DNA of 63,824 bases, counting the filler, from Chrysochromulina tobinii (taxonomy: Eukaryota): the NCBI GenBank assembly GCA_001275005.1. It is 6 parts of 6 records of this genome, joined end to end, with 100 filler letters (N's around TTAATTAATTAA, not from the genome) between each part and the next. Parts side by side here need not be neighbours in the genome. Positions count along the whole stretch, not along the records: positions 55,882 to 61,724 come from JWZX01001178.1; 5 more parts are not named here. One strand, written 5' to 3'. The notes under the pieces are model-generated. The model worked only from the letters and a program-made list of their open reading frames with translations. It made no database searches and was not told where the DNA came from. Position 1 is the stretch's first letter, and each line of letters begins with the position of its first letter. Positions 56,122 to 60,632 of this stretch are shown one piece after another. The translations under genes and the position numbers were made by a program.

Positions 56122-59100
56122 TCACATCATCACCTCGAGGTGGTACAGCTCCCCTGACTGCGCGCCGGCTGCAATCCTAGGCCAACTCACAGCCACACAC
56201 GAGATCGGGCTCGGCGCATAGAATGCACCACCCCCGTCCTTCATGCGAATCGTCGCGCCATCGCGCACCACACCCTCGGCCTCTTTGCTGAAGGCCATGG
56301 CCTCACCTGGACGCGTTTCGAGCAGGTTAAACGAATCTGCATCCCAGACTTTGATCGTATTGTCCCACGATCCTGACACAATCTTGGTCCCATCCGGGGA
56401 AAACGCCACCGACGTGACTACCCCGCTGTGGGCATTCGTCTTCTCGCTCAGCAGCTCCAGTTTGTCTGCCAGGCAAGCCAACAGGCGTCAGTTTTGGCCA
56501 ACGAGGGGCGATTTGAGGGCTCCGGCGCACCCAAATCCCAGACTTTGATCGTCTTGTCGTCCGATCCAGAGACGATCTTGGTCCCGTCCGGGGAGAACGC
56601 CACCGACCTGATGGTGTCGCTGTGGGCGTTGGTCTTCTCGCTCAGCATCTCCAGCTTGTCTGCCAGACAAGCCAGCAGGCGTCAGTTTTGGCCAAGGAGG
56701 GGCGATTTTGAGCTCGCGGCGCACCCGAATCCCAGACTTTGATCGTCTTGTCAGCCGATCCCGACACAATCTTGGTCCCGTCCGGGGAAAACACCACCGA
56801 CGTGACTACCCCGCTGTGGGCGTTCGTCTTCTCGCTGAGCTGCTCCAGTTTGACTGCCAGGCAAGCCAACAGGCGTCAGTTTTTGCCAACGAGGGGCGAT
56901 TTGAGGGCTCCGGCGCACCTAAATGCCAGACTTTGATCGTCTTGTCGTCCGATCCTGACACAATCTTGGTCCCGTCCGGGGAAAACGCGACCGACTGGAT
57001 CCAGTCGCTGTGGGCATTCGTCTTCTCGCTCAACAGCTCCAGTTTGCCTGCCAGACAAGCCAGCATGCGTAAGTTTTGGACAAGGAGGGGCGATTATGAG
57101 CTCGCGGCGCACGAGAATCCCAGACTTTGATCGTCCCGTCGTTCGATCCCGAGGCAATCTTGGTCCCGTCCGGGGAAAACGCGACCGACATGATCCCACT
57201 GCTGTGCGCGTCTGTCTTCTCGCTCAACTGCTCCAGTTTGCCTGCCAGACAAGCCAACAAGCGTTAGTTTTGGCCAAGGAGGTGCGATTTGAGGGTAAAC
57301 ACGCACCTGAATCCCAGACTTTGATCGTCTTGTCCAACGATCCCGACACAATCTTGGTCCCGTCCGGGGAGAACGCCACCAACATGACGTAGTCGCTGTG
57401 CGCGTTCGTCTTCTCGCTCAGCATCTCCAGCTTGCCTGCCAGACAAACCAGCAAGCGTCAGTTTTGGCCAATGAGGGGCGATTTGAGGGCTTGCGGCGCA
57501 CCTGAATCCCAGACTTTGATCGTCTTGTCCTCCGATCCGGACACGATCTTGGTCCCGTCCGGGGAAAACGCGACAGAGAAGATCCTGCCGCTGTGGGCGT
57601 TTGTCTTCTCGCTCAACTGCACCATCGTGCCTGCCAGACAAGCCAGCACAAGCGTCAGTTTTGTCCAAGGCGAATTGATTTGAGGGCAAAAGCGCACCCG
57701 CATCCCAGACTTTGATCGTCCCGTCAGCCGATCCGGACACGATCTTGGTTCCATCCGGGGAAAACGCCACCGAGTTGATCCCCCTGCTGTGCGCATCTGT
57801 CTTCTCGCTCAGCATCTCCAGTTTCCCTGCCAGACAAGCCAGCAAGCGTCAGTTTTGGCCAAGGAGGGGCGATTTTGAGGGCAAAGGCGCACCTGAATCC
57901 CAGACTTTGACCGTCCCGTCCTCAAAGCCAGCCACAATGAGCGACATGGTCTGGTTAGTGTGCTTGCCACCATCCTTGCCACCGTCCCAGATGGCCAAGC
58001 TCGTAACATTACATGTGCCCTGGAGCTCCTCGAGCAGCTCCTGGCTCTCGGCGTCGTACACGAAGATGGAGTTGCCTGAGCCGCTGACGATGCGGGTGGC
58101 GCCGACCGCCACAGAGCTGACGCCATCCTTGTGCGACAGTGTGCCAATGCACGCGTCCTTCTCTTGAGATTTGTTACGCCACACGAGTGCACGCGTCGGC
58201 TGCTTGGACGCTAGCTGCGAAGCTTCTGCTGCACGAAACACCGCGCTCGCATCTGGCTGCTGCAGGGCGAGCTGCATCACTGCCGCGCCCTTGTCACGCT
58301 GCAGCACGTCCATGTACTTGCCCACAAATTGGCGCATCTCGGTCGCGTCTGTCAGGTCCACACCGTCCACACCGTCCACACGTCGCAGCTCGAGGTAGTC
58401 CTTAGCCACGCTCGAGAGAAGGCCTCTATCGACGCGTTCACGGAGTAGTGCGAGGTCGGTCGCATACACGTGGGCAGCTTTGGCAGCGAAGGCAGCGTTC
58501 ACGCTCTGGCCATCGGCGCGACAGAGGTGCAAAATGCCGTGTCGCAGCCAATAGTACGTTGCCAAATCGTCCGGGGCACGACCTTCGGGTGGTGTCGGGG
58601 TGCGCCACGCGATGAACCCCTCGGCGAGCAACGCGTGCCCGTCCTTGCGCTGCACCTTGAACTCCGCCGATGGCTCCCTGATCGAGCTGCCTTCGGTGAT
58701 CTCGCCCGTCAGCCAGTCGACGATGGTCTTGTGAAAGACATGAAGCTTGCCATCGCGCACCGGAAAGAGGAGCGCCGTCGTCTCAAGCACGCGCTCCTGC
58801 TGCCCATCGTCCCACCGAAGGAGCGCCGCCGCCATTGCCACCGTGATCGGCTCGCGTGCTGCCGCAATCAGCTCCACGAGGGGCTTCGCCTTGGTCCACG
58901 CGGGGTCCTCCTGACCCTCTGGAAAGGCGCGCTCGAAGTTGACGGCGTACACCTCGCCCAGGCCGGCCGGGAGCGAGTCGAGGTTCTCGAAGTGAATCTC
59001 GCGGCCTTTCTTGGCCTCGCTCTCAAGGTGCTGGCCGAGCATGTAGGCATACAAGAAGAGGCCCTCCGCCTTGGCCGAGAGTGCGTCGACTGCTGCGTCC

Positions 59101-60632
59101 AAGGACGACGTGCTCAGGCGGCCAACGATAAAAGCCTCGAGCTCCCCGGCATCAACCTTTGTGCCCTGGCAGAGGGCTGGCAGCTCCTTGCGGACCTCCT
59201 CGTAATAGACGTGCGCCTCCTTCTTTGCCTTGAGCATGTCTACGTGGTTGAGCTGGATCTCGCACACGTACCTCGTCCCATCCGAAAGCACGACGCCGGC
59301 ACACGAGTTGAAGTCGGAGTAGCCCATCGGCGTCGGCGACGCGTACTTATTCTTGAGCGTGAGAACCTCGATGCCGGCCCCCTTGAGTCCCTCGGCAAGC
59401 GCGTCTGCCATGCGCGAGCAGCTAGTGAAGCGCAGGGTGAGCCGCGCGAGGTCCTTGAGCTTGTTGGCATGGCCACCGTAGTCTTTTTCCATCTTTTCAG
59501 ACACCCGTGGCTCAGACTTGACACCCGGCGAGTCAGCAAACTCGACCCACGCTTTCGCCGTCCCCTGGACTGGATGGCGGAGCGTTTCCTTCTCTGGGTC
59601 CGCCTCCCATTTGCCCGCGATGAGCAACTCGAGCTTTTCCTGCGCCTCGGGCGCCTGCTTCTTGTGGACGGTGTCCAAATCGTCCGACATTTGGACGAGG
59701 TTGTCATTGCGCTTCTCCGGCTCTGCGATGAGCTTCTCGTAGCCATCCTCCGCGCTCACCTTCTTGCGCACCTTGGCGTAGATGGCCTTGGACAAATCCA
59801 TGGGCGCCTGCAGGACGGCAAGCTTACCTTTCATGTCAATGCCGTACGTGCGCTTGACATCAGCCTCAATATCCGCGATGCTCGCCTCGCCTTTGATGTG
59901 CTGGCGCGCGATCGTGCGCAGGTATACCTCGACGTCGGCCCTGTTCTTGGCCTCATCGGCGCGCAGCTCTTTGGGTTTGAAGCTGCTTAGCGCCCTCTTG
60001 ATCTGGGGCTCCTCACGCGACGTCACGAAGAGCTTGAGCCACGGCGGCAGCCGAGAGAGCTGGCTGGCGATGACGTCAAGCAGCGGCTTCTGCGACTCCT
60101 TGGGCAGCTCGTCGAGCGCGTCGATGATGACAAGCAGCGGCTTCTCGGGCGCCTGGACCTCCGAGACGAGCAGCGGCGTCTCGAAGAGCGCCTTGAAGAG
60201 CTCCGCGGGGTCGTCCACCGCTTCCCCTGGTACCCCCGTGGCCTCAAGCTTCTCCTTGTAGCCCGGCAGCCGGTGTGCGAGCATGGCGGCCAGGCTGCGG
60301 AGCAGCGAGCCGGGCGCCGACTGCGCCGGGTTGTCGTGGCGGCAAAAGTGCCAGGCGACGGCACGGTGGATGACACGGTCTAGGAGCTCAGCCGTTAGCA
60401 CCGACTTTCCGGTGCCACCGCCACCCATCAGCCAGAAGAGCTGGGGCGATGCCGGGTCGTCGAGCCATTTGAGGATCTCGGCAAAGGCCCACTCGCGCGT
60501 GCCTTGGAGGTGCGCGCTCTTCTTCTCGCGCCACAGCTCGCGAAAGTCATGAGGCTTCAGATCAAGCGTCGGTGGCACGCTCAGGTGGCCTTGCGTCGAG
60601 CTCTCGGACAAAGCAGAAGCACCCGCACCCAT
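56122..60632 (-). CDS. NACHT-WD40 (HET-E/NWD-like) NLR with an inserted RelA/SpoT-like domain and eight tandem WD40 exons
   Basis: MGAGAS start. GTREWAF..I..WL, Walker A GGGGTGKS, Walker [35 protein letters not shown]. Insert K...RVSEK..KDY...LKDLAR...KNKY..P.PMGYSD...CEIQL...K..AHVYYE. WD exons [25 protein letters not shown] separated by ~65-nt GT-AG introns. Confidence 0.85.
56340..57910 (-). repeat. Tandem ~195-bp exon+intron units (129-nt WD40 exon + ~66-nt phase-1 intron)
   Basis: For example intron 57827-57892 (GTGCG...AACTGAC...GGCAG) and exon 57698-57826; eight units. Confidence 0.9.

What the first reader, a model, noticed from the sequence alone, without database searches (positions are those of the whole stretch)
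59040..60430. RelA/SpoT-like nucleotidyltransferase domain nested inside a NACHT module
Seen: about 250 residues separate the NACHT nucleotide-binding domain (GGGGTGKS ~60410, IIDALDE ~60120, NRADVEVYL) from its helical-domain motif AEGLFLYA (~59055). The insert (~59180-59560) contains [32 protein letters not shown] and [17 protein letters not shown]. Established: these parallel the four synthetase motifs of RelA/SpoT small alarmone synthetases, which in bacteria include toxic anti-phage effectors. NLR effectors are normally N-terminal. Inference: a possibly myristoylated (MGAGAS) eukaryotic NLR whose oligomerisation may switch on an alarmone-type or tRNA-modifying enzyme. The GYSD variant (vs GYxSxH) suggests a different product.
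Basis: partly seen in the sequence, partly recalled or inferred. Interest (0 to 1): 0.85.

Follow-up and report, generated by a model that had tools for sequence, protein, structure and literature searches.

The report
Alarmone enzyme nested inside algal NLR
An algal NLR-type receptor gene carries a 260-residue alarmone-synthetase domain of the bacterial toxin type, catalytic residues intact, inserted inside its ATP-switch module, which would likely let invader detection switch on a nucleotide-draining defence in phytoplankton.

Summary
Confirmed and extended. The minus-strand gene (60632-56122, 9 exons, 1328 aa) is a NACHT-WD40 NLR. It has no N-terminal effector, but about 260 residues sit inside helical domain 1 (59112-59891). 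The insert models at pLDDT 96 as a RelA/SpoT synthetase (Z 13 RelQ, 11.3 Tas1). Its best sequence match among solved structures is the (p)ppApp toxin Tas1/Apk1 (profile E 1.8e-13). Eight active-site residues are kept in 50 of 54 nested relatives, the core has dN/dS 0.25, and RNA contigs cross both junctions. The nesting occurs in haptophytes, pelagophytes and a diatom, in one NACHT clade. Insert-less relatives have a 7-35-residue loop there. Eight near-identical WD40 exons vary at four positions, as in fungal non-self receptors. A related cassette sits inside a choanoflagellate G-alpha. Best reading: a receptor-gated alarmone synthetase that drains ATP/GTP on detection. Activity, product and gating are untested, and GYSD does not reveal the product. 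Fungal NLRs carry RelA_SpoT, but N-terminally. My ten literature searches found no nested form.

The parts
56122..60632 (-). Whole gene: NACHT-type NLR, 9 exons, 1328 aa when the 8 GT-AG introns are removed
   Evidence: RNA joints with intron ends at 6 of the 8 introns are listed (19 further joints not shown)
60609..60632 (-). N-terminus MGAGASAL, predicted myristoylation signal; only 24 aa precede the NACHT pre-helix, so there is no N-terminal effector domain. Alternative in-frame ATG at 60650
   Evidence: the myristoylation consensus is recalled, no predictor was run
59958..60560 (-). NACHT nucleotide-binding domain (Walker A 60402-60425, Walker B 60108-60131)
   Evidence: Pfam NPHP3_N E 4.5e-29, NACHT 4.9e-7; Walker A K in 42 of 42, Walker B D171 and E175 in 51 of 51
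59892..59954 (-). Helical domain 1, helix 1 (before the insert)
   Evidence: helix in model; aligns to the same helix of insert-less coral NACHT P0113
59112..59891 (-). Inserted cassette, aa 248-507: helical stalk, synthetase domain and closing helix
   Evidence: gap 249-316 aa in the nested proteins listed, against 7-35 aa in 63 insert-less proteins; model pLDDT 96.3, pTM 0.91
59169..59681 (-). RelA/SpoT synthetase domain, aa 318-488, with K372, K380, D394, R397, Y438, N442, E458, Q460
59010..59111 (-). Helical domain 1, helices 2-3 (AEGLFLYA), resuming after the insert
   Evidence: AAA_lid_TANC1 positions 39-92 match this part in relative P0100 at E 0.023
58593..58997 (-). Winged-helix domain with conserved H634 (FHK)
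   Evidence: HTH_TANC1 E 0.0017; H in 50 of 53
58203..58565 (-). Helical domain 2 (APAF1_C-like)
   Evidence: Pfam APAF1_C E 1.4e-6
56337..57923 (-). Array of 8 near-identical WD40 units, one per 129-base exon, separated by near-identical 65-67-base introns (period 194); four hypervariable positions per repeat

Best explanation
This is a NACHT-WD40 NLR whose helical domain 1 carries an inserted alarmone-synthetase domain with an intact active site, predicted to be the receptor's effector and likely held off until the variable WD40 sensor binds a foreign ligand. Shown: architecture, fold, residues, conservation, transcription through the insert, hypervariable sensor. Inferred steps: (1) the protein is tethered to a membrane by N-myristoylation and rests in the closed ADP-bound state; (2) ligand binding to the WD40 propeller drives ADP/ATP exchange and the usual STAND opening; (3) because the enzyme is grafted rigidly onto HD1, that movement frees or aligns its active site; (4) it transfers pyrophosphate from ATP to the 3'-OH of a purine nucleotide, most likely an adenosine one (about 55:45 over guanosine-only), and drains ATP/GTP so that the infected or attacked cell arrests or dies. 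The trigger is unknown; a viral or parasite protein is the likeliest.
For: Fold: pLDDT 96.3, pTM 0.91 for HD1 plus insert; Foldseek rank 1 is Tas1; VIA Z 13.0 RelQ, 11.3 Tas1 (highest identity, 28%), 10.1 SaEAS. Four of the five Apk1 ATP-site residues listed in PMC12691689 section 5 align: R330, N370, E382, Q384 to R397, N442, E458, Q460. I used the alignment with a 21-residue numbering offset, and read the paper's printed Q382 as Q384. Eight active-site residues are kept in 50 of 54 nested proteins. dN/dS of the core is 0.25, against 0.21 for the NBD. There is no N-terminal effector to do the job instead. The NACHT switch residues are intact. All 31 insert-bearing NBDs tested form one clade (support 0.905), and NBD and synthetase distances correlate (rho 0.83). 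Sensor: four positions per repeat have 2.6-3.5 bits of entropy, against 1.55 or less elsewhere, over 38 distinct repeats; fungal NWD receptors show the same four-site pattern (PMC4986451). N442 is shared with the two adenosine-accepting enzymes Apk1 and SaEAS. Intact paralogues occur beside broken ones: 8 of 31 loci carry stops or frameshifts, as expected of immune gene families.
Against: No activity, product, ligand or phenotype is known. Pfam RelA_SpoT stays below its cut-off of 27 bits in the query (13.8) and in the four nested relatives that matched (19.9-24.2). Apk1 K353 has no lysine opposite it in the sequence alignment. By Z, housekeeping (p)ppGpp synthetases RelQ/RelP score as high as Tas1 or higher. 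Close bacterial relatives include (p)ppGpp-only enzymes, so the product is open, and the N442 argument rests on two enzymes. Four of 54 nested relatives lack part of the site, two of them (near-copies) nearly all of it. Some relatives carry further N-terminal domains that could be effectors (EF-hands; ubiquitin-like plus endonuclease/phosphatase). No structure of the full module was obtained, so nothing shows the active site being blocked. The dN/dS values are pooled non-independent pairs of 10 close sequences, without a significance test.
Confidence: 0.6

Rival explanations
1. The insert is an active but slow synthetase that makes a second messenger, (p)ppGpp or (p)ppApp, for a downstream receptor, the plastid or engulfed bacteria, and does not kill by nucleotide depletion.
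For: RelQ/RelP give the top Z scores. The same cassette is fused to or inserted in signalling proteins: G-alpha, Ras-like, EF-hand, E2, BCCT transporter. The gene is transcribed in all 7 RNA runs laid. Dyrka et al. proposed manipulation of bacteria for the fungal RelA_SpoT NLRs (PMC4986451).
Against: By sequence the only strong solved match is the toxin Tas1. The prokaryote-like relatives found are a contractile-injection-linked protein, a phage-portal fusion and exported-type enzymes. No hydrolase domain is present and the N-terminus shows no obvious plastid presequence (no predictor run).
Confidence: 0.17
2. The insert pyrophosphorylates an RNA 3' end (tRNA CCA or viral RNA) or another acceptor, like FaRel2 and CapRel.
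For: It has an extra N-terminal helical stalk, and FaRel2 uses N-terminal helices to bind tRNA (PMC11782079). The stalk evolves fast (dN/dS 0.71). CapRel matches at Z 9.3.
Against: FaRel2 scores Z 5.6. Neither FaRel2 nor CapRel appears in the profile searches of solved structures, where Tas1 scores 1.8e-13.
Confidence: 0.11
3. The insert is an integrated sensor or decoy: bait for a pathogen inhibitor of alarmone enzymes, or a nucleotide-binding regulator of the NLR, with the output made by a partner.
For: The stalk varies fast, and the insert appears to be exchanged between paralogues: L009 has synonymous divergence 0.02 in the NBD, 0.025 in HD1-WHD and 0 in the first WD repeats, but 0.157 in the synthetase. 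P0283 and P0305 have lost the site.
Against: The catalytic residues are near-invariant in proteins down to 27% overall identity. A hypervariable sensor already exists in the WD40 array. This protein has no other effector domain.
Confidence: 0.1
4. The nesting is an artefact: an intron, a mobile element or a misassembly.
For: The Chrysochromulina tobinii database model P0043 skips most of the insert. Three RNA runs hold a joint 58835-59490 and several runs a joint 59816-59894.
Against: The frame is open and conserved in 56 stored proteins from several phyla. RNA contigs cross both junctions (X2 59715-60291, X8 59564-60253, X6 59070-59273, X1 58972-59167). The odd joints lack intron ends and have short sides; the first has 38 foreign letters between, and the second is also in a DNA run. 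P0043 also lacks Walker B, which points to a faulty gene model.
Confidence: 0.02

Closest known systems
Tas1/Apk1 and exported alarmone synthetases (SaEAS, VpEAS/RelV, Apk2)
   Same: Best sequence match among solved structures; same KDLAR, GYS.xN and EIQ motifs and the same pre-catalytic helix; four of five listed ATP-site residues align.
   Different: Eukaryotic and intron-bearing; no secretion module; no Tis1-like neighbour seen on the 5.8-kb piece; extra stalk and beta-hairpins; embedded in a STAND ATPase.
Fungal RelA_SpoT-NACHT-WD40 NLRs (Dyrka et al. 2014, PMC4986451; Sordariales survey, PMC12258605)
   Same: The same three kinds of domain in one protein; a proposed alarmone output.
   Different: There RelA_SpoT is the N-terminal domain. 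Here it is inside HD1; 0 of 236 stored synthetase-bearing proteins have it upstream of the NBD. Whether the two enzyme domains share an origin was not tested.
Fungal NWD/HNWD non-self receptors (HET-D, HET-E, HET-R)
   Same: NACHT plus near-identical WD40 repeats with four hypervariable positions.
   Different: No HET domain; each repeat is its own exon, as reported for LRRs of brown-algal ROCO genes (PMC11378527, abstract).
CapRel fused toxin-antitoxin anti-phage system
   Same: An invader-gated toxic alarmone-synthetase domain within one polypeptide (PMC11782079).
   Different: Gated by a small antitoxin domain, not a NACHT switch; acts on tRNA; Z only 9.3.
Plastid long RSH enzymes of algae (RSH1-4)
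   Same: Synthetase fold; found in the same algal groups (PMC6881373).
   Different: No hydrolase, TGS or ACT domain; the insert is closer in sequence to Tas1 than to long RSHs.

Membership tests
NACHT-type NLR (STAND) | NACHT NTPase with Walker A and B, HD1, winged helix with conserved His, HD2 | tested here: met
NACHT-type NLR (STAND) | C-terminal repeat sensor | tested here: met
   WD40 array
NACHT-type NLR (STAND) | N-terminal effector domain | tested here: not met
   only 24 aa precede the module in this gene; some relatives have N-terminal extras
NACHT-type NLR (STAND) | Ligand-induced nucleotide exchange and oligomerisation | not testable with these tools
   needs biochemistry
RelA/SpoT synthetase (RSH SYNTH) | Pol-beta-like synthetase fold | tested here: met
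RelA/SpoT synthetase (RSH SYNTH) | Four catalytic motifs, with Mg-binding Asp and catalytic Glu | tested here: met
   D394 in 63 of 65, R397 64 of 65, E458 60 of 62, Q460 59 of 61
RelA/SpoT synthetase (RSH SYNTH) | Pfam PF04607 gathering score of 27 bits | tested here: not met
   13.8 bits in the query; 19.9-24.2 in four nested relatives
RelA/SpoT synthetase (RSH SYNTH) | Pyrophosphokinase activity | not testable with these tools
   needs an assay
Apk1/Tas1-type (p)ppApp toxin and exported alarmone synthetases | Sequence affinity and shared ATP-site residues | tested here: met
   K353 equivalent not matched
Apk1/Tas1-type (p)ppApp toxin and exported alarmone synthetases | Export module (signal peptide, PAAR, MuF, LXG, DUF4157) in a bacterium or phage | tested here: not met
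   eukaryotic spliced gene whose domains are all accounted for
Apk1/Tas1-type (p)ppApp toxin and exported alarmone synthetases | Adenosine acceptor specificity | tested here: inconclusive
   N442 is shared with Apk1 and SaEAS, but the class includes (p)ppGpp-only enzymes
Fungal RelA_SpoT-NACHT NLR | RelA_SpoT domain N-terminal to the NACHT | tested here: not met
Fungal RelA_SpoT-NACHT NLR | Common origin of the enzyme domain | not tested
   no fungal RelA_SpoT NLR sequence was retrieved
tRNA-pyrophosphorylating toxSAS (FaRel2, CapRel) | tRNA-binding N-terminal helices and small acceptor-site basic patch | tested here: inconclusive
   lower Z (5.6, 9.3); surface charge not examined
Plastid long RSH | HD hydrolase domain next to the synthetase, with TGS/ACT | tested here: not met
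   the flanks are NACHT subdomains
NWD/HNWD-like diversified WD40 sensor | High internal repeat identity with four hypervariable positions | tested here: met
   no formal codon-model test of selection

The most novel reading that the evidence does not exclude
Microbial eukaryotes took a bacterial toxin-class alarmone synthetase and turned it into a loop-insertable cassette that is wired into the helical lids of P-loop switches: NACHT HD1 in haptophytes, pelagophytes and diatoms, and the helical domain of a choanoflagellate G-alpha. This gives plankton a switch-gated cytosolic (p)ppApp pathway, an NLR whose effector sits inside the switch and kills infected cells by draining ATP.
Probability: 0.35. 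Interest if true: 0.92.

Novelty: new variant of a known kind. Interest (0 to 1): 0.8.

Why it matters
How bloom-forming algae detect and stop viruses or parasites is largely unknown; NACHT genes are among those raised in virus-resistant Gephyrocapsa (Emiliania) huxleyi cells (PMC12489294, passages). This family supplies a sensor, a switch and a named enzymatic output in one polypeptide, and it can be tested in E. coli or yeast in weeks. It would be a eukaryotic use of a (p)ppApp-class enzyme, which my searches did not find in print. It also breaks the rule that NLR effectors are terminal domains, and offers a natural example of an enzyme gated from inside a STAND module. Pfam misses the domain, so the family is hidden in current annotations.

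Tried and rejected
Single-sequence fold of aa 1-711 failed (pLDDT 38) and was discarded. The complex predictor was not available, so contact between the enzyme and the rest of the NACHT module is untested. The wide VIA search was not run; the VIA result is a second look at Foldseek's hits. No whole genome is held, so copy number and the presence of a matching hydrolase gene could not be counted. Viral contigs: 0 of 100 pattern matches encoded a relative. Annotated phages: no tblastn match. Plasmid collection: 1 record. The GTDB genome scan was not run because the deep alignment had no conserved word. PHROGs, PADLOC and NCBIfam gave nothing at E below 0.008 for the insert or its two tested relatives. 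ESM Atlas: unnamed, mostly eukaryotic clusters first and RelA_SpoT (34% of members) lower down, a lead only. The careful synthetase tree did not finish; the quick tree is poorly resolved (20 of 99 branches at 95 or more) and has no outgroup, so donor and direction of transfer are not claimed. The nine-row prokaryote-like group (support 92) was partly labelled after I saw the tree. TAL-effector, swallow and uS11 hits in the structure-sequence searches (E 0.02 or worse) were rejected as noise. Earlier findings of the scan: nothing returned.
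Full report
Observation. The finding lies on a 5.8-kb piece (55882-61724) of a window made of six pieces joined by N spacers. A minus-strand frame runs without a stop from ATG 60632 to 57893. Eight GT-AG introns of 65-67 bases follow, giving 1328 aa with a stop at 56122. Pfam finds NPHP3_N (E 4.5e-29), NACHT, a TANC1-like winged helix, APAF1_C and WD40 in that order, with nothing assigned between about aa 220 and 575.

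Position and size of the insert. Insert-less relatives, for example coral P0113, align to aa 40-247 and again from aa 512, with the two parts adjacent in the relative. Of 110 stored proteins with a near-complete NBD and a downstream HD1/WHD match, 63 have a gap of 7-35 residues and no synthetase, and 47 have the synthetase with a gap of 85-316. The 85 is most likely the faulty model P0043; those listed span 249-316. The insert (aa 248-507) therefore sits inside helical domain 1, between helix 1 and helix 2.

What the insert is. Alone it scores only E 0.07 on Pfam RelA_SpoT, but its best match among solved structures is Tas1 (E 9e-5). Family profiles raise this to 1.3e-9 and 1.8e-13, with B. 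subtilis YwaC second. An AlphaFold model of aa 226-545 from 91 sequences has pLDDT 96.3 and pTM 0.91, so the two halves of HD1 and the insert are predicted as one ordered unit. Foldseek ranks Tas1 first. VIA gives Z 13.0 for RelQ (rmsd 3.3, 145 aligned), about 12 for RelP, 11.3 for Tas1 (rmsd 4.1, 152 aligned, 28% identity), 10.1 for SaEAS, 9.3 for CapRel and 5.6 for FaRel2; the top 29 rows are all RelA/SpoT enzymes. Four of five ATP-site residues listed for Apk1 in PMC12691689 (section 5 read) align with R397, N442, E458 and Q460, and D394 matches the DxxR aspartate that is mutated to inactivate SaEAS. Eight site residues are all present in 50 of 54 nested proteins with full coverage (the set holds near-copies). 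Two unannotated Photobacterium proteins with apparent signal peptides match at 32-34% identity; I take them to be RelV/VpEAS-like, which I did not verify.

Selection and expression. Among 10 close sequences, pooled dN/dS is 0.21 for the NBD, 0.25 for the catalytic core, 0.71 for the stalk and 0.35-0.51 for the C-terminal parts (pairs not independent, no test). RNA contigs from 7 of 7 RNA runs laid cover parts of the insert, cross both junctions, and show joints with intron ends at 6 of the 8 WD40 introns, so mRNA is present. No contig spans the whole gene, paralogues contribute, and most intron joints have short sides in a repeat; the first intron is the well-supported one (71 and 106 letters). 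Two joints inside the region lack intron ends; I read them as degenerate paralogues.

Range. The insert search gave 42 long proteins: 29 have NBD before and HD1/WHD after it, 8 only the downstream part, 4 only the upstream part and 1 neither. Named nested members are Prymnesium parvum, Pelagomonas calceolata, Pelagophyceae sp. CCMP2097 and the diatom Thalassiothrix antarctica. A Chrysochromulina tobinii model is 83% identical in the NBD, which suggests a close haptophyte host. All 31 insert-bearing NBDs in a FastTree form one clade (0.905) apart from animal, bacterial and fungal NACHTs, and NBD and synthetase distances correlate (rho 0.83), consistent with one old insertion (19 near-copies and most fungal rows left out). 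The catalytic domain hits 890 clusters at 50% identity, of which I saw the best 150. Of 225 synthetase-bearing proteins stored, 115 had a NACHT part on one or both sides, 83 were too short to tell and 27 were long without one. Those 27 include LRR and ankyrin proteins, Ras-like, EF-hand, E2 and BCCT fusions, a contractile-injection-linked protein and a phage-portal fusion. In the choanoflagellate Didymoeca costata the cassette interrupts a G-alpha between its P-loop region (aa 19-83, weak match) and the rest (aa 388 on); this rests on one transcriptome-derived sequence.

Sensor. The eight WD40 units are one exon each and 82% alike with their introns. Over 38 distinct repeats from 16 loci, positions 14, 15, 17 and 33 carry 2.6-3.5 bits of entropy, against 1.55 or less elsewhere. 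Diversity at their first two codon positions (0.44-0.74) exceeds that at fourfold sites (0.29). Fungal NWD receptors are described with four such positions on the propeller's binding face (PMC4986451, passages).

Mechanism. Shown: an intact NACHT switch, a diversifying sensor, no N-terminal effector, and a conserved enzyme grafted on HD1. Inferred: the closed receptor keeps the enzyme off and ligand-driven opening releases it. Enzymes of this class turn over about 1e5 times a minute and kill by draining ATP or GTP (PMC12691689), so I favour nucleotide depletion and arrest or death (0.6) over second-messenger signalling (0.17), RNA modification (0.11), decoy (0.10) and artefact (0.02). The product cannot be read from GYSD. 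N442, shared with Apk1 and SaEAS, tips it slightly to (p)ppApp.

Known and new. [quoted passage not shown] Ten full-text searches returned no description of a synthetase inside a NACHT module, of this algal family, or of (p)ppApp with NLRs; 'pppApp' with 'NLR' gave 0 papers, and for the larger result sets I saw only the top of the listing. I read passages only of PMC10083569, PMC11782079, PMC3482391, PMC6881373, PMC12489294, bioRxiv 2022.07.19.500537 and 2022.03.16.484565; the abstract of PMC11378527; and the abstract, passages and sections 5, 9 and 11 (part 1) of PMC12691689. No supplements were read. The domain-architecture tables of the bacterial NACHT preprint (closed) and papers in subscription journals could hold a prior mention. 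General STAND activation, the Syn1-4 motif names and the myristoylation consensus are recalled.

Verdict. The feature is real, old and conserved: a new variant of enzyme-effector NLR with the effector inside the switch. Interest 0.8.

Noticed in passing
P0220 (Didymoeca costata), aa about 84-387: The same stalk-plus-synthetase cassette interrupts a G-alpha in its helical domain; Ras-like domains precede it in P0247 (Pfam) and apparently in P0284 (Bicosta minor, read by eye).
   Followed up: partly
P0182, P0185, P0187, P0192, P0195, P0199, P0208, P0041: A clade (support 99) without a detectable NBD that keeps the cassette and what look like degenerate HD1/WHD remnants, several followed by LRR or ankyrin repeats; probably derived from the nested NLR.
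   Followed up: partly
L009 1129-3861: Mosaic paralogue or allele: nearly identical to the window gene outside the insert but divergent within it, suggesting exchange of the insert.
   Followed up: partly
L023-L027, L029-L031: Broken copies of the gene with stops and frameshifts, 8 of 31 loci.
   Followed up: no
P0094, P0096 (Prymnesium parvum): Nested NLRs with a long N-terminal region; P0094 has ubiquitin-like and endonuclease/exonuclease/phosphatase matches.
   Followed up: no
P0043 (Chrysochromulina tobinii): Database model named 'tpr repeat-containing protein' that lacks Walker B and most of the insert; likely mis-predicted.
   Followed up: partly
L032 2639-3427 and 3647-4471: Two tandem unannotated Photobacterium genes for exported-type alarmone synthetases.
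   Followed up: partly
window 30114-31652 (-): A second NACHT ORF, with an EF-hand, on another piece of the window; it gave no tblastn match to the nested protein.
   Followed up: no
window 54104-55780 (-): Long BspA-type leucine-rich-repeat ORF in two blocks on the neighbouring piece.
   Followed up: no
window 62560-63824: Tandem repeat of roughly 120-base units seen in the raw sequence.
   Followed up: no
PMC3153485 Table 1: Divergent hydrolase-only RSH proteins are listed for Emiliania huxleyi and Aureococcus anophagefferens, the two algal groups richest in this NLR family here; possible detoxifying partners.
   Followed up: no
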